Source: Nitrosopumilus sp.
GTDB taxonomy: Archaea; Thermoproteota; Nitrososphaeria; Nitrososphaerales; Nitrosopumilaceae
Assembly (NCBI GenBank): GCA_965223425.1
Contig: OZ245003.1
Span: forward strand, 1,216,001-1,280,000
Length of the DNA: 64,000 bases
Reading direction: 5' to 3'
Shown: positions 2,597 to 45,529 of the stretch, piece after piece
Layout of the letters: every line of letters begins with the position of its first letter
Position numbering within the stretch: the stretch's first letter is position 1
Translations under genes and position numbers: made by a program
Notes under the pieces: model-generated
Told to the model about the DNA's origin: nothing
Databases searched by the model: none
Seen by the model: only the letters and a program-made list of their open reading frames with translations

Positions 2597-5500
2597 TTGC
2601 AACGATTGATAAAGTCACCGCTGCCTGCAATAGCAGCAATAGCGGCACTTGTTCTTCTGATTCCCCTTTGCATCTCCCTTGCTGATGCCGCGATAGATTC
2701 GCCTGTTCCAGTCGCCTCTGTTGCTGACGGCTCGGCCTACCCCGAGCTTGCAGGCGCATGGGATATTACCACCGTGGTTATCAACGCCAGCACCTACGCC
2801 CTTGTTACGGGATCTCACGACTTAGGAGTCCAGATAATTGACATTACGGATCCCGCAAGCCCCACACATGTAGCTGCTATCATTGATGGTCAGTCCCATT
2901 CCAACAGCAAGAAATTTGACACGCTCTCATCTCCACATGGAATCACCACCGTGGATATTGGCACCAGCACCTACGCCCTGGTCGCATCATCCCATGAGGG
3001 CGGCATCCAGATAATAAATATCACAGATCCCGCAGACCCTGCCCCAGTCGTCTCTATCCGTAACGACAAGACCTACCCCAAGCTTGCAGGCGCATGGGAT
3101 GTCACCACCGTGAAGATAAACTCCAGCACCTACGCCATGGTCACATCAAACGAATCCACTAACGGTGGCGGCGTCCAGATAATCAACATTACTAATCCCG
3201 CAGACCCTGCCCCCGTCTCCTCCTTTGGTAACGGGGACGCCGTCACAGTCGGCGAGGAAGAGAAGACATACGACACGCTTGCAGGCGCCAATGGAATAAC
3301 CACAGTGAATATGGGCTCCAGCACCTACGCCCTTGTTACGGCATATTACGACAACGGCGTCCAGATAATCAACATTACTAATCCTGCCAGCCCCGTCCCA
3401 GCCGCCTCTATTACTGACAACTCTACCATAAATCTTGCAGGCGCGGTAGACATCACCACCGTGAAGATAGACTCCAGCACCTACGCCCTTGTTGCGGCAT
3501 ATTACGACAACGGCGTCCAGATAATCAACATTACTAATCCTGCCAGCCCCGTCCCAGCCGCCTCTATTACTGACAACTCTACCATAAATCTTGCAGGCGC
3601 CTATGGAATAACCACCGTGACTGACGGCTCCAGCACCTACGCCCTTGTTGCGGCATCTACCGACAACGGCGTCCAGATAATTGACATTACTAATCCTGCC
3701 AGCCCCGTCCCAGCCGCCTCTATTACTGACGAACAGGAACATGACAACGGCAAGACATTTGACGAGCTTGAAGGCGCACATGGCATTACCACAGTGACTG
3801 ACGGCTCCAGTACCTACGCTTTGGTCGCATCAACCGGCGACAACGGAGTCCAGATAATTGACATCTCGACGGCAGCAGAAGAAGAATCCACTACAGACAG
3901 GCAGCCATCAACACAATCAGACACAGATGCTATTACCACAAGCAAACAAACATCCGCAGATGCAACGTCTGTCCCGGCAGACTGGGGCCTGATACCCTCG
4001 GGCCTTGGCGAGGGACAAGACCGGTTCAGGCTGCTCATCGTGACATCTACTGAACACAACGCCACATCTTCTGACATAGCAGTATATGACACATTCGTCC
4101 AAAACCTCGTAGCAGCAGGCCATGAAGACATACAAGAATACAGCTCGTCATTCAGGGTGGTGGGCAGCACGTCTACAGTCGATGCGCGCAACCACACCGG
4201 TACCACCCATACCGATACAAACAAGGGCCCCCCAATCTACTGGCTAGACGGCGCAAAGGTGGCAGACAACTATCAGGACTTTTACGACGGATCATGGGAT
4301 GAGGAGAGATCCGCGCGAAACGAGAATGGAGATGAATTCGTGTTTGGTACTACTTCTATATTTACTGGTTCTAAGTCTGATGGGACAAAAGCATCCTTTT
4401 TTTACTTAGGTAATAACCTAGGGGCACTACTGGGGCTTCCAAACATAGATAGGGATCCACTCACCAGTGATAATCCTTTCACCTCATCTGAAACCCTTCG
4501 GTTTTACGGCATCTCGCCTGTATTTCAGATAGGCACAACAAATGCCGCCCCAATCGCCGATGCCGGCCCAAACCAGCACGTGCAGGAAAGAGACACGGTG
4601 ACCCTTGACGGGACTAACTCGGCGGATCCTGATAACGGCGACGACACTACCCTGACGTACTCGTGGTCCCAGACATCAGGTACCCCTGCCGTAACCCTGG
4701 CAAACGCCAACACAACAAGCCCCACATTCACGGCACCGTCCACTGCCAACTTTACTGCCCTGACGTTCGCGCTTACAACAAATGACGGCTCCCTGTCAAG
4801 CAACAATGACACGGTAACAGTAACAGTCTACGACGACCAGACGATCTTTGCCAGGTCTGCCACATACTATGAAAACCACGGCATCCTCGGCATAACCTTC
4901 AACAAGGACGTCAACCTGCTCATTAGTACTGAGCTTGACTTGTTCCATATCCGCGAGTCCGGCTCTGATGATGGCGGCTCGAATCTTCTCTCCTCCAAGC
5001 TGCTGATCACGACGGGCAGCACGGCGCATTTCAAGCTTGATTCATCCACAGACAGCGCAGTCAGGGCATTGGCATCCCCGGAGGCTGACATAGAACCCGA
5101 TTTCACATATTCACAAGGAGGATTCTCATTTGATTACGACCAGAACGACCTGCCAATAAAGAGCGGCGCATTTCTTCCGCTGATAGAATCTGTTACCCTT
5201 GCGGCCCGTGACGAGCTCACCGTGCGCTTTTTGTCCAACGTCGACACGGACATTACTAACGGCACGGGGTGGATCCTGTTTGGCGCAGACGTAACGGCAG
5301 CAAACCTTGCCATAGAATCAAACTCGGATCCGGGCGGAATAAAAGACACCATGACGCTTGCGCTAAATGCCTCCCTGCCAGGCACTGCCACCAGGTTCGA
5401 TGACGTGCACGTCAAATACCAGAGGCCGTCAGGCGATGGCGGAGGCATCTTCAACGGCACTGAATACCTCGGGAACACTGCTGACATCAAGGCAGCCGAC

Positions 5501-29099: not shown

Positions 29100-29781
29100 A
29101 CACAATCTTGATCTTATCTTGCATATTCAGTAAAATTAACGGGTGTTGATACAACACTGTATGAAGAAGTGTGTCTTGCTAACGGAAAAATACATTGAGT
29201 CATACATCTGATCTATGAAAAATGACGAACAGATGAGTTATCTCAAAATCAAGTGTGATAGAAAGCATCTTTATGCCGTGACAGACGATGAAACCAAATA
29301 TTGGATAGCAAAACAAGTATCAGATCACAAGTACACACAGGACGTAAAACCAATGTTTAGGTAGGCCGTCAAAGTAGCAAAAAACAAACAACTTGTTAAT
29401 CTCAGGTGAATCCCAAAACTTTCATGGGGGTAAAAATACAAATGGAAAGCCAAAAACTTTCTACATAAAGGTACCGAGCACATTAGAGGCATACACATGA
29501 AAAATGACAGAGATAGCAACAAGATAGAAGATTGAGCAGCATAACTAGAGACAGAGAAAAGGTGATCCGTTCCCCTCCAATAGAGGCGGTTCACAGGTTA
29601 TCAAGTGTATACAGATCGTCACAACTTCATTCGTGGACAAGGGAATAGATGGTAAGACACCAGCTAAAGAAGCAGGTGTCAAGACAAAAGGCGCTAACAA
29701 GTAATTACATTAATTCAGAATGCTAAAAAATCTCAGATCGCCAAACTTCCAGTAGAAATAGGTCACTAGTTTGCCAGAACC
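29100..29781 (+). pseudogene. Degenerate IS6-family (DDE) transposase with right inverted repeat
   Basis: Fragments DDETKYWIAKQVSDHKYTQDVKPMFR, NKIE, RDREKV, HNFIR and GKTPAKEAGV broken by stops and frameshifts. Ends in tttgccagaacc (reverse complement GGTTCTGGCAAA). Left border approximate. Confidence 0.75.
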
Positions 29782-43333: not shown

Positions 43334-43612
43334 TTATTGTTTTTCAATAATTTTGTTTTCTGGAATTGAACTAATATAATTCACCAGGCTTCTATAATAT
43401 TTCAAATGAAAGCCCAAATCTCTTATTTCTGTTTGCTTTAACTCTTCTAACTCAGGTCCAAAATCCCTTCTGTCTGTTTGAATCTGGTTTAGTACACCTT
43501 CATTCACTTCAATCATGTGAAATAGACTGTGCAGCACTTCGCCTTTTGTGAGCGTGTTATCGCATGATTTTTTTAGCAACGTTTCAATCCAATCCATGTT
43601 TATTGAATTCAA
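43334..43612 (-). CDS. Hypothetical protein
   Basis: 92-aa helical ORF converging on the DUF922 gene. Confidence 0.6.
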   Translation of the reverse strand: MNSINMDWIETLLKKSCDNTLTKGEVLHSLFHMIEVNEGVLNQIQTDRRDFGPELEELKQTEIRDLGFHLKYYRSLVNYISSIPENKIIEKQ

Positions 43613-43683
43613 AGTTGTTATATCCAGACCTGAATTTGATAAATTCTGACCTTTACTCTATTTTTTTTAGTTTAGGCTTACAA

Positions 43684-43815
43684 TTATTTTCTTGATGCCC
43701 GTTTTTTTCGGTTCATAATTTCCTTGTTTCTTTCTACATCTGAATGAACTTCTACATGTTCGTATAGCTGTTCTTTTGAATCAAACATCTGTTCACAGTA
43801 ATAACATTGATGCAT
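43684..43815 (-). CDS. 43-aa C2H2 zinc-finger protein
   Basis: Own translation: MHQCYYCEQMFDSKEQLYEHVEVHSDVERNKEIMNRKKRASRK*. Confidence 0.75.
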   Translation of the reverse strand: MHQCYYCEQMFDSKEQLYEHVEVHSDVERNKEIMNRKKRASRK

Positions 43816-43879
43816 TTTATAATTACGTCAATCTTAGATTAATTACTTTCTGTATTGGGTTCTGTGAAGTTATCGGGAG

Positions 43880-45142
43880 TTAACCCCTATAACTCGACTT
43901 TGACATATCGACTATTCGGATTACCGATGGTGTGCCGGATTCCGTCATCGCCGGCTCAAAAGTGCCGGACTGCGCTTCACATATGTCATCTCTACTGCCC
44001 CTAAACCTAGGGGGCAGCTTGCGTGATATGTTGTTCATGGCAGCGACAATATCCCTGTCCATAAACAAACCGCAATTATTACACGACAGTTTACGATGCT
44101 GTTGCATGTCCTCTTGGAGTCTCTTTCCGCATTGCGGACACTGCGTGCTCGTGTTTCTTGGGTCTACTGTCTCGACTGGTGGGAGCCCGACCCATCGGGC
44201 TTTGTATTCTATTTGGCGTTGCAGCTCGTAGAATTGCCACCCGTTCAATCTGCGCCTGTACTTGTTGCCTTGACTGTTTCCTTTTCGGTACAATTTTCTT
44301 ATTCCTTTCAGGTTTTCCATGACGATTGCAGTCTTGTTTTTGACTGCGTTGTCTACTATATCCTTTGAGATTCTGTGGATGTACTGCCTTGCTCTGTCAG
44401 TCAGTCTTCTCTGTCTTTCCTTGCAGAACTGATTTTTCTTCCTGCGGTCATTTCTGTGGAAGCCTGCCCTGGCGTGTACTGTGTTCTCCTTTATGGATAA
44501 CAGTTTGTTTGTCTTGCAGACTGTCACCCCTTCCTTGTTCCCACACGTCACATTTCTTAGGTTTCTGTCTATTCCAACTTTCTTGGTGCACTCTATCTCT
44601 TGTACTTTTTTTGAAACACAAAGACTGATGTTGAGGGCAGTCAGTGAAAACGAGCGCACCGTCAGGGCGGGATCAGACAGGATTTTTTGGGTGTGATCGT
44701 TGAGTAAGATGTTGATTGGGTTATGCTTCTTGTATGGGATTGTTAGTAGTGCACCGTTGTGTTTTATGCCGTAACAGTTTGTCATAAAGGGATTTTTGAC
44801 TATTGGGTCTCTTATTCGGACACCTCGTTTGACTGATTGTTTTCTGTTTGATAATGTGCCTGCAGCTCTTGATATTGCACATATCTTGTATGACGATAAA
44901 ATGTCATAGTTACGCAATTCATGACAACATAACATGGACAGCCTCTTCATATCGTGAGTGTCTTCTTTCAACCCTATCTTGATGCAATGATTGGCCATCT
45001 TTGTGAATGTAGCCGCCATATCCATTAGGTCAGAGTTCGGCGCATATTTCTGTGATATTGGCTTTATCGCCTTCAGCGAATATCTTGCGGTTTGGAGGCT
45101 TGTACATTTTGGGAATTGACATGTAACTCCCGATAACTTCAC
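43880..45142 (-). CDS. tnpB: TnpB RNA-guided endonuclease
   Basis: RuvC-I VGIDRNL, RuvC-II IVMENL, Zn ribbon CPQC..CNNC, RuvC-III DRDIVAAMN. True start uncertain (possibly CTG at 45076 or a downstream ATG). Confidence 0.95.
   Translation of the reverse strand: MKLSGVTCQFPKCTSLQTARYSLKAIKPISQKYAPNSDLMDMAATFTKMANHCIKIGLKEDTHDMKRLSMLCCHELRNYDILSSYKICAISRAAGTLSNRKQSVKRGVRIRDPIVKNPFMTNCYGIKHNGALLTIPYKKHNPINILLNDHTQKILSDPALTVRSFSLTALNISLCVSKKVQEIECTKKVGIDRNLRNVTCGNKEGVTVCKTNKLLSIKENTVHARAGFHRNDRRKKNQFCKERQRRLTDRARQYIHRISKDIVDNAVKNKTAIVMENLKGIRKLYRKGNSQGNKYRRRLNGWQFYELQRQIEYKARWVGLPPVETVDPRNTSTQCPQCGKRLQEDMQQHRKLSCNNCGLFMDRDIVAAMNNISRKLPPRFRGSRDDICEAQSGTFEPAMTESGTPSVIRIVDMSKSSYRG
43895..44017 (-). 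ncRNA. Candidate omegaRNA scaffold overlapping the tnpB 3' end
   Basis: Nested stems: CTGCCCC/GGGGCAG (43995-44017), TGACATAT/ATATGTCA (43981-43988 with 43901-43908), CCGGC/GCCGG (43951-43968), CGATG/CATCG (43925-43950). Confidence 0.6.
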
Positions 45143-45190
45143 AGAACCCTGTATTGTATGAAAAATTTGTTCCTGTATTCTGTTAAACGT

Positions 45191-45529
45191 TCATGAAGTT
45201 TCTAACTCAATTTCGAAATTACATATGGGCAGCTTGCCTGATTCGTTTTTGAACTGTTCTATTAGTTGAAGCTGACGCTCTTTTGGACTGCCTGTAAATT
45301 CTCTTTGGTATGATTGAGTTTTCTGCTTGCATTCATTTCCTTCAAAATTGGTATCTACATATTTTGTAAATATTTTTTCTAGATTATTTGATTCACCAAC
45401 ATATATTGCCTCTTTTTGTCTGTTGTATAATACGTATACTCCTGGAATTGGTTTAACGAATTTAGCGCTCTCGAGCCAAACCCTCATTTTATCATCAAGT
45501 AGCTGCTGCATACTTGAAGATATTTTCAC
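45191..45529 (-). CDS. Small GIY-YIG-superfamily protein
   Basis: PGVYVLY...IYVGES motif. Confidence 0.75.
   Translation of the reverse strand: MKISSSMQQLLDDKMRVWLESAKFVKPIPGVYVLYNRQKEAIYVGESNNLEKIFTKYVDTNFEGNECKQKTQSYQREFTGSPKERQLQLIEQFKNESGKLPICNFEIELETS

What the first reader, a model, noticed from the sequence alone, without database searches (positions are those of the whole stretch)
43850..45156. TnpB packaged in a DDE-type element: perfect 25-bp TIRs, 8-bp target duplication, no transposase
Seen: a tnpB with all three RuvC acidic residues and the Zn ribbon fills a 1291-bp unit bounded by perfect TIRs starting GGTTCTG and flanked by the duplicated target ctgtattg. Established: prokaryotic tnpB normally travels in IS200/IS605/IS1341 (HUH TnpA) or IS607 (serine recombinase) elements, which have neither TIRs nor TSDs. 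GGTTCTG ends with an 8-bp TSD are typical of the IS6 family, and an IS6 remnant with a GGTTCTGG end lies at 29781. Inference: this is a non-autonomous tnpB element mobilised in trans by an IS6-like DDE transposase, a prokaryotic parallel to Fanzor capture by DDE transposons. Perfect TIRs and TSD imply recent movement. Best candidate for an undescribed system in this window.
Basis: partly seen in the sequence, partly recalled or inferred. Interest (0 to 1): 0.9.

Follow-up and report, generated by a model that had tools for sequence, protein, structure and literature searches.

The report
TnpB element with IS6-type ends
A small jumping gene in an ammonia-oxidising archaeon carries only an RNA-guided nuclease (TnpB) and its guide-RNA module but has the ends and 8-bp footprint of an unrelated IS6-type transposon, so a different transposon's enzyme probably moves it, and its insertion sites carry a one-sided TTR motif that fits the nuclease's recognition signal.

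Summary
Window 43858-45148 is a 1291-bp unit with perfect 25-nt inverted ends (GGTTCTG...), an 8-bp duplication (ctgtattg) and one ORF, an intact TnpB.

It is one of about 14 two-ended copies in this genome. Most have their own 8-bp duplications, and relatives have the empty site.

The TnpB clade keeps IS6-type ends across Nitrosopumilaceae, other Thaumarchaeota and Bathyarchaeia: 49 of 79 loci have both ends. It never encodes a transposase (0 of 88 loci). Autonomous IS6-like elements in sister genomes share the first 18 terminal bases and make 8-bp duplications. Trans-mobilisation by an IS6-like DDE transposase is therefore well supported.

The 3' 160 nt form a covarying RNA structure that ends in the right inverted repeat, as an omega-RNA scaffold would.

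New here: just 5' of the left-side duplication, 41 of 42 insertions have T then A/G (31 of 42 TTR). There is no mirror motif on the right side, and transposase-bearing IS6-like elements have it on only 3 of 16 sides. This fits a TAM placed so that the empty site reads TAM plus guide target.

DDE-associated, inverted-repeat-bounded prokaryotic TnpBs are already published (Altae-Tran 2023). An IS6-type partner is not named in the text I could read. Verdict: new variant of a known kind.

The parts
43838..43857 (-). DNA just beyond the right end (tnpB sense): one 8-bp target-duplication copy (43850-43857, ctgtattg) plus flank. This is the predicted guide-encoding stretch of the omega-RNA.
   Evidence: Sequence and flank table. 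The guide role is inferred from TnpB biology and from the TTR/TSD geometry.
43858..43882 (.). Right-end (RE, 3' of tnpB) terminal inverted repeat, GGTTCTGTGAAGTTATCGGGAGTTA read inward. It holds the TAA stop of tnpB (43880-43882).
   Evidence: An exact CAGAACC end is kept in 63 of 75 related loci, against 0 of 68 control windows.
43858..44018 (-). Predicted omega-RNA scaffold: five helices overlapping the last ~46 codons of tnpB and ending in the RE TIR.
   Evidence: The 223-nt stretch 43858-44080 that contains it folds with z = -4.6; 0 of 200 shuffles fold as well. Of 27 consensus pairs, 16 have compensatory changes. 98.1% of cells are paired, against 28-37% when partners are slid. G-U pairs fit only the tnpB-sense strand. 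There is no Rfam family.
43880..45142 (-). tnpB, 420 codons counted from a GTG inside the left TIR. The true start is uncertain: two sister copies have GCG there, and relatives align from about residue 18-23.
   Evidence: All 9 close copies keep a 422+ codon open frame. dN/dS is 0.28-0.35 for this copy against 7 sisters.
45124..45148 (.). Left-end (LE, 5' of tnpB) terminal inverted repeat.
45149..45156 (.). Second copy of the 8-bp target duplication, ctgtattg.
   Evidence: A single homologous copy (ctataattg) lies at the uninterrupted site of relative G088.
45157..45159 (-). TAM-like position. In tnpB sense the three bases 5' of the LE-side duplication read ATA, with T at -2 and A at -1.
   Evidence: Across 42 insertions, T at -2 in 42 of 42, R at -1 in 41 of 42, T at -3 in 32 of 42.
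29240..29781 (+). Decayed IS6-like transposase remnant ending in a GGTTCTGG-type terminus. It lies outside the finding and is context only.
   Evidence: sequence; tblastn E 1.5e-9.

Best explanation
This is a non-autonomous insertion sequence made of a complete OMEGA module, an active-looking TnpB nuclease plus its omega-RNA scaffold, packed between IS6-type terminal inverted repeats.

An IS6-like DDE transposase encoded elsewhere probably binds the GGTTCTG... ends and inserts the unit with an 8-bp staggered cut (inferred). This transposase is 345-403 aa with N-terminal zinc fingers. The omega-RNA is read from the 3' end of tnpB through the right repeat into the flank, so its guide would be the 8-bp duplication plus the next bases (inferred).

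The left flank carries T-T-A/G immediately before its copy of the duplication. The uninserted allele therefore reads TAM plus a perfect guide match. The occupied site is protected in two ways: only 8 matching bases remain on the left, and ...AACC stands in place of a TAM on the right.

TnpB would thus cut empty alleles and drive copying or retention of the element. Insertions that happen to lie next to a TAM would be the ones that persist (inferred).
For: Mobility:
- About 14 two-ended copies in the genome. Seven have perfect and one a 7/8 8-bp TSD, all different.
- Two copies have swapped flanks, which an inversion between them explains.
- Relatives have the empty site.

IS6 link:
- The transposases' best NCBIfam hit is IS6 over the full profile, and Pfam DDE_Tnp_IS240 scores above its cut-off.
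- Autonomous element L128/L147 is 1970 bp with a perfect 29-nt TIR and TSD ctattgtg. It shares the first 18 nt of its TIR with TnpB elements L072/L074/L088 of the same genome.
- L159 is an IS6-like element of another species. Its TIR GGTTCTGTGAAGTTATCG... matches the window's over 18 nt.
- No transposase lies inside any of 88 TnpB loci.

OMEGA module:
- The DED triad and zinc-finger cysteines are invariant.
- dN/dS is about 0.3 and 9 of 9 close copies keep the ORF intact.
- The 3' RNA structure covaries.
- The RE end is conserved more often than the LE end, 63 of 75 against 37 of 77.
- All 3 short remnants in the genome are RE-side.

TAM:
- TR lies at -2/-1 of the LE-side TSD in 41 of 42 insertions, against 0.17 expected (binomial 2e-30).
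- The mirror motif at the RE side is at background, 8 of 42.
- Transposase-bearing IS6-like elements have TR on 3 of 16 sides (Fisher 2e-9).
- 13 of 19 TIR-paired copies without a TSD still have it.
- There is no positioned TATA-like signal upstream.
Against: - No RNA, cleavage or transposition was observed. The TAM and guide roles rest on geometry and statistics alone.
- The IS6-like transposases score below NCBIfam's IS6 cut-off (103-122 against 125 bits). Their elements are 2-2.7 kb, not about 0.8 kb.
- The own genome has only one apparently intact IS6-like transposase ORF (C1:917303-918340). Its element has no findable left TIR.
- IS6-family transposition, as known for IS26, is replicative and leaves no empty donor site. 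Classical restorative homing would then have nothing to restore (reviews PMC7986276 and PMC13565253, passages read).
- A 41-of-42 bias is very strict for selection after random insertion.
- The control set is small, 8 elements.
- 23 of the 42 insertions come from one genome, OZ240211.1.
- More distant subfamilies do not show TR: L033 CTTT, L046 TTTT, L048 ATAT.
- No empty-site joint was seen in the four sequencing runs laid.
Confidence: 0.72

Rival explanations
1. The one-sided TTR motif is imposed at the moment of integration. TnpB, through its TAM reading with or without omega-RNA, steers the IS6-like transposase to TAM-adjacent sites. Alternatively, the transpososome on TnpB elements is intrinsically asymmetric.
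For: The bias is very strict: T at -2 in 42 of 42 and R at -1 in 41 of 42. It also holds among the youngest, closely similar copies of one genome. Autonomous IS6-like elements lack it, 3 of 16 sides, so whatever imposes it travels with TnpB.
Against: No interaction between TnpB and a DDE transposase is known to me (recalled). The 25-nt TIRs are perfectly symmetric, so the transposase has no obvious cue to tell left from right. Selection or homing can in principle give the same pattern.
Confidence: 0.15
2. The TTR and the AT-rich stretch before it are an expression signal or a regional preference, not a TAM. Candidates are an archaeal initiator T-R, a promoter-proximal element for the otherwise promoterless tnpB, or insertion just after oligo-T terminators.
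For: The ORF is open from base 7 of the element, so transcription must start in or read in from the left flank. Positions -20 to -12 are 67-86% A+T. The window copy sits 42 nt downstream of a co-oriented gene. Archaeal start sites are typically a purine preceded by a pyrimidine (recalled).
Against: There is no positioned TATA-box-like enrichment 26 +/- 4 nt upstream of the R. An invariant T and R at one exact position is stricter than promoter elements usually are. TTG is not in frame with the GTG: the two lie 17 nt apart.
Confidence: 0.08
3. An ordinary IS1341-type (IS200/IS605) TnpB element landed inside an IS6-derived MITE. The TIRs are a recent accident at this locus, and TnpB plays no part in the composite.
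For: IS6-type MITEs with related TIRs exist in the genome, for example C1:1088904-1089044 and 1599170-1599502. Some deep capture event must have created the family.
Against: The ORF's stop codon, and its most upstream candidate start (uncertain), lie inside the TIRs, which leaves no room for IS605-type ends. The same architecture is found from 92% down to 37% protein identity, in three archaeal groups. The inner TIR half covaries with upstream sequence to keep a terminal RNA hairpin.
Confidence: 0.03
4. TnpB itself, which has a RuvC/RNase-H fold like DDE enzymes, is the transposase for these ends.
For: The element encodes nothing else, and the own genome has few intact IS6-like transposases.
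Against: The same termini and 8-bp TSD bound elements that encode an IS6-like DDE transposase and no TnpB. No TnpB is known to catalyse strand transfer (recalled).
Confidence: 0.02

Closest known systems
DDE-transposase-associated TnpB branches (DDE-1 to DDE-6) of Altae-Tran et al. 2023, PNAS (PMC10691335; sections 9 and 10 read, supplements closed)
   Same: A prokaryotic TnpB sits inside a transposon with inverted terminal repeats. The 3' end of tnpB lies close to one transposon end. Solo TnpBs with the same ends as transposase-bearing elements are taken to be mobilised in trans.
   Different: The families named in print are IS630 (that paper) and ISL2, IS630 and IS1031 (review PMC13565253). 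IS6, IS26 and IS240 occur 0 times as whole words in the PNAS main text. Here TnpB is never next to the transposase (0 of 88 loci), so a gene-neighbourhood screen would probably miss the link. In the main-text sections and passages I read, that paper does not report a TAM lying outside a variable 8-bp TSD.
IS1341-group elements of the IS200/IS605 family (TnpB only)
   Same: One gene, tnpB, with the omega-RNA scaffold overlapping its 3' end and ending at the element's right end. The element is non-autonomous. The guide is read from the flank, and the TAM sits on the left flank.
   Different: IS200/IS605 elements have no TIRs and no TSDs, and a Y1 HUH TnpA moves them as single strands (review PMC13565253, section 5.1 read). 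This element has perfect TIRs and 8-bp TSDs, and the TAM is separated from the left end by the TSD.
IS6 family insertion sequences (IS26, IS257 and archaeal members; Varani et al. 2021, PMC7986276, passages read)
   Same: GG at the tips and a cTGT motif in short, perfect TIRs. 8-bp direct target repeats. The transposases' best family match is IS6/IS240.
   Different: Classical members are 0.7-0.9 kb and carry only a 213-254 aa transposase. One member with a passenger gene and two MITEs are listed, and TnpB is not mentioned (0 occurrences). Here the cargo is TnpB with no transposase. The partner transposases are 345-403 aa with extra N-terminal zinc fingers, sit in 2-2.7 kb elements, and score below NCBIfam's IS6 cut-off.
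Fanzor-carrying eukaryotic DDE transposons (Mariner, hAT, piggyBac and others)
   Same: A TnpB-family nuclease and its guide RNA ride in a TIR/TSD transposon moved by an unrelated DDE transposase.
   Different: In Fanzors the 5' TSD is part of the TAM and the 3' TSD is part of the RNA scaffold (review PMC13565253, section 6.2 read). Here the TSD is variable and would be the first 8 bases of the guide target, with the TAM outside it. The host is archaeal.

Membership tests
TnpB / OMEGA RNA-guided nuclease | Split RuvC domain with a D-E-D triad, and a zinc finger between RuvC-II and RuvC-III | tested here: met
   D192, E276, D364 and C335/C338/C354 are invariant in alignment A2. NCBIfam guided_TnpB scores 115.1 bits against a cut-off of 100. 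Pfam PF07282 scores 71.8 against 26.3.
TnpB / OMEGA RNA-guided nuclease | Structured omega-RNA scaffold overlapping the 3' end of tnpB and ending at the element's right end | tested here: met
   z = -4.6. Of 27 pairs, 16 have compensatory changes; 98% are paired against 28-37% when slid. This shows structure only; the transcript itself was not shown.
TnpB / OMEGA RNA-guided nuclease | Conserved TAM 5' of the guide-matching target in the uninserted site | tested here: inconclusive
   A one-sided TTR lies at the predicted place in 41 of 42 insertions, and IS6-like controls lack it. The function of the motif was not tested.
TnpB / OMEGA RNA-guided nuclease | RNA-guided DNA cleavage | not testable with these tools
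   Needs a biochemical or TAM-depletion assay.
IS200/IS605 family (IS1341 group) | No terminal inverted repeats and no target-site duplication; subterminal hairpins recognised by a Y1 TnpA | tested here: not met
   Perfect 25-nt TIRs and 8-bp TSDs. The element is therefore not a member, although its TnpB is homologous.
IS6 family (as a non-autonomous derivative) | Short perfect TIRs with GG tips and a cTGT motif | tested here: met
   The TIR is GGTTCTGT.... The family motif is as given in PMC7986276.
IS6 family (as a non-autonomous derivative) | 8-bp direct target repeats | tested here: met
   Seven perfect TSDs in the own genome, 28 perfect among 79 loci, and 6 perfect among 29 transposase-bearing loci.
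IS6 family (as a non-autonomous derivative) | The partner transposase is an IS6-family DDE enzyme | tested here: inconclusive
   IS6 (NF033587) is the best NCBIfam hit over the full profile, but it scores 102.8-121.9 bits against a cut-off of 125. Pfam DDE_Tnp_IS240 is above its cut-off. The proteins carry extra N-terminal Zn domains.
IS6 family (as a non-autonomous derivative) | Replicative cointegrate formation | not testable with these tools
   One inversion between two inverted copies is compatible with this, but homologous recombination explains it equally well.
DDE-associated TnpB branches of Altae-Tran 2023 | The TnpB falls in one of the branches DDE-1 to DDE-6 of that tree | not tested

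The most novel reading that the evidence does not exclude
TnpB decides where, or whether, a DDE transposon stays. In this archaeal family an IS6-type cut leaves an 8-bp duplication. Essentially only insertions whose left flank carries the nuclease's TAM (TTR) right beside that duplication are found. Either TnpB's TAM reading steers the IS6-like transposase to its target, which would be guide-independent, nuclease-assisted target choice. Or TnpB-driven homing into empty alleles is the only route by which such insertions reach fixation, even for a transposon that never excises.
Probability: 0.25. Interest if true: 0.85.

Novelty: new variant of a known kind. Interest (0 to 1): 0.66.

Why it matters
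A 2026 review of OMEGA systems (PMC13565253, section 6.2 read) states the open problem. TnpB's known benefit is restoring elements that excise without a scar, so it is unclear what TnpB offers a DDE transposon, and such pairings are rare in prokaryotes.

This family is a large natural test case.
- It has hundreds of copies in ammonia-oxidising archaea and Bathyarchaeia.
- It is always non-autonomous, with ends borrowed from an IS6-like transposon.
- Its insertion sites record a one-sided motif that the transposase's own elements lack.

That makes the question testable with simple assays: TAM depletion, and transposition with and without TnpB.

It also predicts a compact archaeal TnpB (about 400 aa) with a short TTR-type TAM and a defined scaffold of about 160 nt.

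Finally, it shows that screens based on gene neighbourhood miss TnpB-transposase partnerships that work purely in trans.

Tried and rejected
Rfam: the only match in 43600-45400 was a chance lncRNA hit at E 0.27.

RNA evidence: one sponge metatranscriptome run (X1) is kept as contigs only and holds 0.07 of the sampled words. Its contigs cover 43896-44051 at word depth 17-30, against 8-10 over the ORF body. The tool warns that contig depth cannot rank parts of a gene. One DNA run (X6) shows the same unevenness, so I do not count this as evidence of an omega-RNA.

No contig in X1, X2, X4 or X6 joined across the element as an empty site. One joint, 43879 to 45127 in X6, has only 22 letters on a side and is probably a repeat artefact.

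Promoter reading of the TTR: there is no positioned TATA-like signal, and TTG is out of frame with the GTG.

My first search for autonomous partners used flanks that were too short and missed the L128 element. A blastn comparison and the repeat finder then found it.

The genome-wide TIR-pair scan at loose settings was mostly noise: 232 pairs. It was redone with a TSD filter.

The mean dN/dS over all 36 pairs (0.58) is inflated by copy c783913. That copy carries a 3-nt indel and was compared unaligned. The script also stopped with an error before the last region. I use only the 7 printed pairs between the window copy and the other sisters (0.28-0.35).

Only 59 of the 79 loci entered the tree. 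Twenty were dropped by my filter for stop-free translations of at least 330 aa, among them most of the closest loci (L049-L061). The tree is FastTree with two outgroups, whose ends I did not map beyond a pattern scan.

Thirty of the 79 loci had no anchored TIR pair and were not used for the TAM count. The 19 TIR-paired loci without a TSD were counted separately.

I ran no structure prediction, complex prediction, large protein-database search or metagenome scan, because the questions were answered without them.

Print status rests on the searches, and on passages read. They may list this clade among branches DDE-1 to DDE-6.
Full report
**What is at the coordinates**

Window 43858-45148 is a 1291-bp unit. 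Its ends are a perfect inverted repeat. The repeat finder gives 26 nt at 100% (43857-43882 / 45124-45149). The 25-nt arm GGTTCTGTGAAGTTATCGGGAGTTA occurs exactly twice in the window, against 0.00 expected in 100 shuffles. The octamer ctgtattg flanks it on both sides (43850-43857 and 45149-45156).

The only substantial ORF runs on the minus strand from 45142 to 43880 and is 420 aa. It is a TnpB:
- Pfam Cas12f1-like_TNB matches at 5e-20.
- NCBIfam guided_TnpB scores 115 bits against a cut-off of 100.
- The RuvC residues D192, E276 and D364 and the zinc-finger cysteines C335, C338 and C354 are invariant in an alignment with seven relatives.

The ORF fills the unit. A GTG at bases 7-9 of the left repeat opens the frame, and the TAA stop is the inner edge of the right repeat. 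The real start is uncertain, because two sister copies have GCG at that codon and relatives align from about residue 18-23.

**It is a mobile, multicopy element**

The window lies at C1:1216001-1280000 of a genome of 2.64 Mb in two contigs. The unit recurs as:
- nine full-length copies of 94.6-98.9% pairwise identity;
- three full-length copies of a diverged subfamily, 80-87% identical to the window copy;
- two copies interrupted by other insertions;
- three short remnants.

Flanks were read.
- Seven copies have perfect 8-bp duplications, all different: ctgtattg, aataaacc, gatactag, tcctgtag, gatttctg, gaaataac, ttatagat.
- One copy has a 7/8 duplication.
- Copies at 1325308 and 1451399 lie in opposite orientation, and each carries the other's partner octamer. 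A 126-kb inversion by recombination between them explains this.
- Two copies (286119 and the interrupted 594234-596770) show no duplication.
- Two copies (654737 and 783913) have their left tip replaced; see 'Seen in passing' below.

All nine close copies keep an open frame of at least 422 codons. For the window copy against seven sisters, dN/dS is 0.28-0.35. The printed mean over all 36 pairs, 0.58, is inflated by one copy that has a 3-nt indel and was compared unaligned.

**The empty site exists**

A 4-kb query across the locus found the two flanks next to each other in many genomes of the genus. In G053, G088, G097 and G073, for example, they lie 43-50 nt apart, where the window has 1339 nt. 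In the alignment, the end of the window's left flank and the start of its right flank both fall on one stretch of G088 (ctataattg). The relative therefore has a single copy of the target.

**The TnpB clade keeps these ends**

Homologues of 61-64% identity in two other species of the genus (G021, G004) are bounded by GGTTCTGT... repeats. One has the TSD cgaatagt. A 33%-identical homologue in another family of the order has GGTTCTGTTAACTT... repeats and the TSD aaagagag.

A scan of one genome per species found 205 relatives, and the best 79 loci were kept. They come from:
- a Nitrosopumilus MAG with more than 30 copies;
- other Nitrosopumilaceae, Nitrosotalea and Nitrosotenuis;
- further Thaumarchaeota;
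- Bathyarchaeia at 37-43% identity.

With the ends anchored on GGTTCTG (at most 1 mismatch) and at least 15 of 24 repeat matches, 49 of 79 loci have a TIR pair. Of these, 28 have a perfect 8-bp TSD and 2 have 7/8.

Most of the remaining loci keep one end. An exact CAGAACC lies within 200 nt after the gene in 63 of 75 loci that have enough sequence. An exact GGTTCTG lies before the gene in 37 of 77. Control windows 1 kb away have the motif in 0 of 68.

In a FastTree of 59 of the 79 loci plus the window (60 rows), TIR-paired rows occur in every major subclade. A long, fully supported branch separates the clade from two other TnpBs of the genus, for which my pattern scan found no such ends. Twenty of the 79 loci were dropped by my translation filter, among them most of the closest ones.

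**The partner is an IS6-like DDE transposase acting in trans**

No transposase lies inside any TnpB element. Among 88 loci, only two have an IS6-like fragment within 3 kb, and both fragments are outside the element.

The genome holds many decayed IS6-like transposase genes and one apparently intact ORF of 345 aa. That ORF has a right TIR but no findable left one.

These transposases match NCBIfam's IS6 model best and over its full length. They score below its cut-off (103-122 against 125 bits) and above Pfam's DDE_Tnp_IS240 cut-off. They carry extra N-terminal zinc-binding domains. Such genes occur in 56 of 151 genomes of the genus at E <= 1e-40.

Intact autonomous elements exist.
- L128/L147 is 1970 bp with a perfect 29-nt TIR and the TSD ctattgtg. 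Its first 18 terminal bases equal those of TnpB elements L072, L074 and L088 in the same genome.
- L159, from another species, has a 24/24 TIR beginning GGTTCTGTGAAGTTATCG, the window's own subfamily.
- Six of the 29 transposase loci examined have perfect 8-bp TSDs.

The IS6 review (PMC7986276, passages read) gives 8-bp repeats, GG tips and a cTGT motif as family traits. It lists one member with a passenger gene and never mentions TnpB.

**An omega-RNA-like scaffold ends in the right repeat**

The last 223 nt in tnpB sense fold with z = -4.6, and 0 of 200 shuffles fold as well.

An alignment of ten 3' regions covers three own subfamilies, G021 and G004. It gives a consensus of 27 pairs in five helices, including a long-range one, and 16 pairs have compensatory changes. 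98.1% of cells are paired, against 28-37% when partners are slid by 1-3 columns. 0 of 500 column shuffles reach the observed covariation score. The tool's caveats about related sequences apply to both controls.

Several pairs are G-U, which fits RNA of the tnpB-sense strand.

By eye, the inner half of the right repeat also pairs with the sequence just upstream, and this hairpin is kept by different sequences in each subfamily. RNAalifold did not include it in its consensus.

No Rfam family matches.

**A one-sided TTR motif**

I oriented every insertion by tnpB and took those with a TSD of at least 7/8. There are 42:
- 8 own copies;
- 2 sites reconstructed from the swapped pair;
- 1 from G021 and 1 from G028;
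- 30 of the 79 loci, of which 23 come from one genome.

In the two bases immediately 5' of the left-side TSD copy, T stands at -2 in 42 of 42 and A or G at -1 in 41 of 42. T stands at -3 in 32 of 42. TR is expected at 0.17 (binomial 2e-30).

The mirror motif after the right-side copy is at background, 8 of 42.

Eight transposase-bearing IS6-like elements with TSDs show TR on 3 of 16 sides (Fisher 2e-9 against the TnpB set).

Among the 19 TIR-paired TnpB loci without a recognisable TSD, 13 still have TR at that place. One of the six misses (L124) has a 9-bp duplication preceded by TTA.

A 344-bp deletion derivative in the own genome keeps the scaffold end and has TTTG on the expected side.

There is no positioned TATA-like signal 26 +/- 4 nt upstream. 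Only an A+T-rich stretch lies directly before the motif.

Three more distant elements read CTTT, TTTT and ATAT instead.

**How it most likely works**

Shown computationally:
- a mobile unit with IS6-type ends and footprints;
- an intact TnpB under purifying selection;
- a conserved RNA structure that ends at the right terminus;
- shared termini with autonomous IS6-like elements;
- a strict, one-sided flank motif that travels with TnpB and not with the transposase.

Inferred:
- The IS6-like transposase moves the unit in trans.
- The scaffold is transcribed through the right repeat into the flank, so the guide is the TSD plus the following bases.
- TTR is the TAM.

With this geometry the uninserted allele reads TAM plus a full guide match. 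In the occupied site the left side matches for only 8 bases before the repeat begins, and on the right side the full match is preceded by ...AACC, not a TAM. This is the self/non-self logic of IS605 elements carried over to a TIR/TSD transposon.

TnpB would cut empty alleles and have them repaired from an occupied copy. Such alleles could be sister or incoming chromosomes, or revertants that lost the element between its 8-bp repeats. TAM-flanked insertions would therefore be kept or driven to fixation.

I cannot tell whether the bias arises this way or already at integration. Its strictness keeps the second possibility open.

**Against this reading**

- IS26-type transposition is replicative and leaves no empty donor site.
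- No RNA or cleavage was observed.
- The control set is small.
- The sequencing runs I could lay were contigs only and showed no empty-site form.

**Comparison with what is known**

The element is not a member of the IS200/IS605 family in the structural sense, because that family lacks TIRs and TSDs. Its TnpB, however, is a typical member of the TnpB family.

The idea that prokaryotic TnpBs can sit in DDE-type transposons is in print. Altae-Tran et al. 2023 describe six DDE-associated branches, all with inverted terminal repeats, and solo TnpBs with matching ends 'mobilized by transposases in trans' (PMC10691335, section 9). IS630 is named there. A 2026 review names ISL2, IS630 and IS1031.

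IS6, IS26 and IS240 do not occur in the PNAS main text. Four full-text searches that combined IS6 (or IS6 family) with TnpB, Nitrosopumilus, Thaumarchaeota or archaea found no report of the pairing. A fifth, on TnpB, TAM, TSD and TIR, found none either. The supplements that list the branches were closed, so this clade may be among them.

I therefore rate it a new variant of a known kind. The additions are the IS6-type partner, the purely trans relationship across a whole archaeal clade, and the TAM-like motif outside a variable TSD.

**Seen in passing**

- An IS110-family element sits exactly at the tip of the left repeat of at least two TnpB-element ends.
- All three short remnants of the element keep the scaffold side.

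Noticed in passing
own genome C1:785204-786537 (locus L002 about 2792-4125); also C1:2062650-2061317; a ~30-nt remnant next to C1:654737: A ~1.33-kb element encoding an IS110-family DEDD transposase (Pfam PF01548 7e-24, PF02371 4e-21) abuts the left tip of IS6-type TIRs. The TIR there reads ACGTCTGT... instead of GGTTCTGT... This occurs at two TnpB-element ends and at a third TIR-like site. It looks like site-specific insertion into the TIR tip, as IS110/IS1111 elements do with other repeats (recalled).
   Followed up: partly
own genome C1:1325308-1326598 and C1:1451399-1452689: Two inverted copies of the TnpB element have exchanged flanking octamers (taacataa, agtttcta). This indicates a ~126-kb chromosomal inversion by recombination between the copies.
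   Followed up: partly
own genome C1:1199933-1200276, 1675763-1675979, 1686022-1686120: All three short remnants of the element keep the right (omega-RNA scaffold) end and none keeps the left end alone. The 344-bp one is a TIR-bounded deletion derivative with an 8-bp TSD (ggataatt) and TTTG on the predicted TAM side.
   Followed up: partly
own genome C1, e.g. 641370-641470, 1088904-1089044, 1599170-1599502, 1768689-1768774, 1892824-1892964, 2362053-2362686: There are many short MITE-like pairs (84-634 bp) of related GGTTCTGT... repeats, some with 8-bp TSDs. About 99 TIR-like sites lie within 5 mismatches of the 20-mer.
   Followed up: partly
own genome C1:1201385-1208237, just upstream of the window: A 6.85-kb segment is bounded by identical inverted GGTTCTGTCAAGTTATCGTG ends and contains an IS6-like transposase fragment. 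It may be a composite or a large IS6-type transposon.
   Followed up: no
own genome C1:1860917-1862710: A 1794-bp element has 19/20 inverted GGCTCTGTTTCGTCATTGGT ends and a perfect 8-bp TSD (gtaaattg). Its content was not examined.
   Followed up: no
own genome contig C2 (123,097 bp): The second contig has 46.9% G+C against 41.2% for the chromosome, and it carries weak TnpB-like matches of another family. It may be a plasmid or another extrachromosomal element.
   Followed up: no
L128 893-2862 and loci L154, L156, L157, L172, L176: Autonomous IS6-like elements of this genus are 1.97-2.7 kb. That is far longer than classical IS6 members, and 0.8-1.5 kb lie beyond the transposase gene. L128's transposase has a SWIM-like CxC...CxH motif (read by eye) and a zinc ribbon at its N-terminus.
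   Followed up: no
window 45191-45529 (-) and 43684-43815 (-): The element sits between a 112-aa gene with a GIY-YIG-like motif (read by eye, not searched) and a 43-aa C2H2-zinc-finger-like ORF. Both flanks are syntenic across the genus.
   Followed up: no
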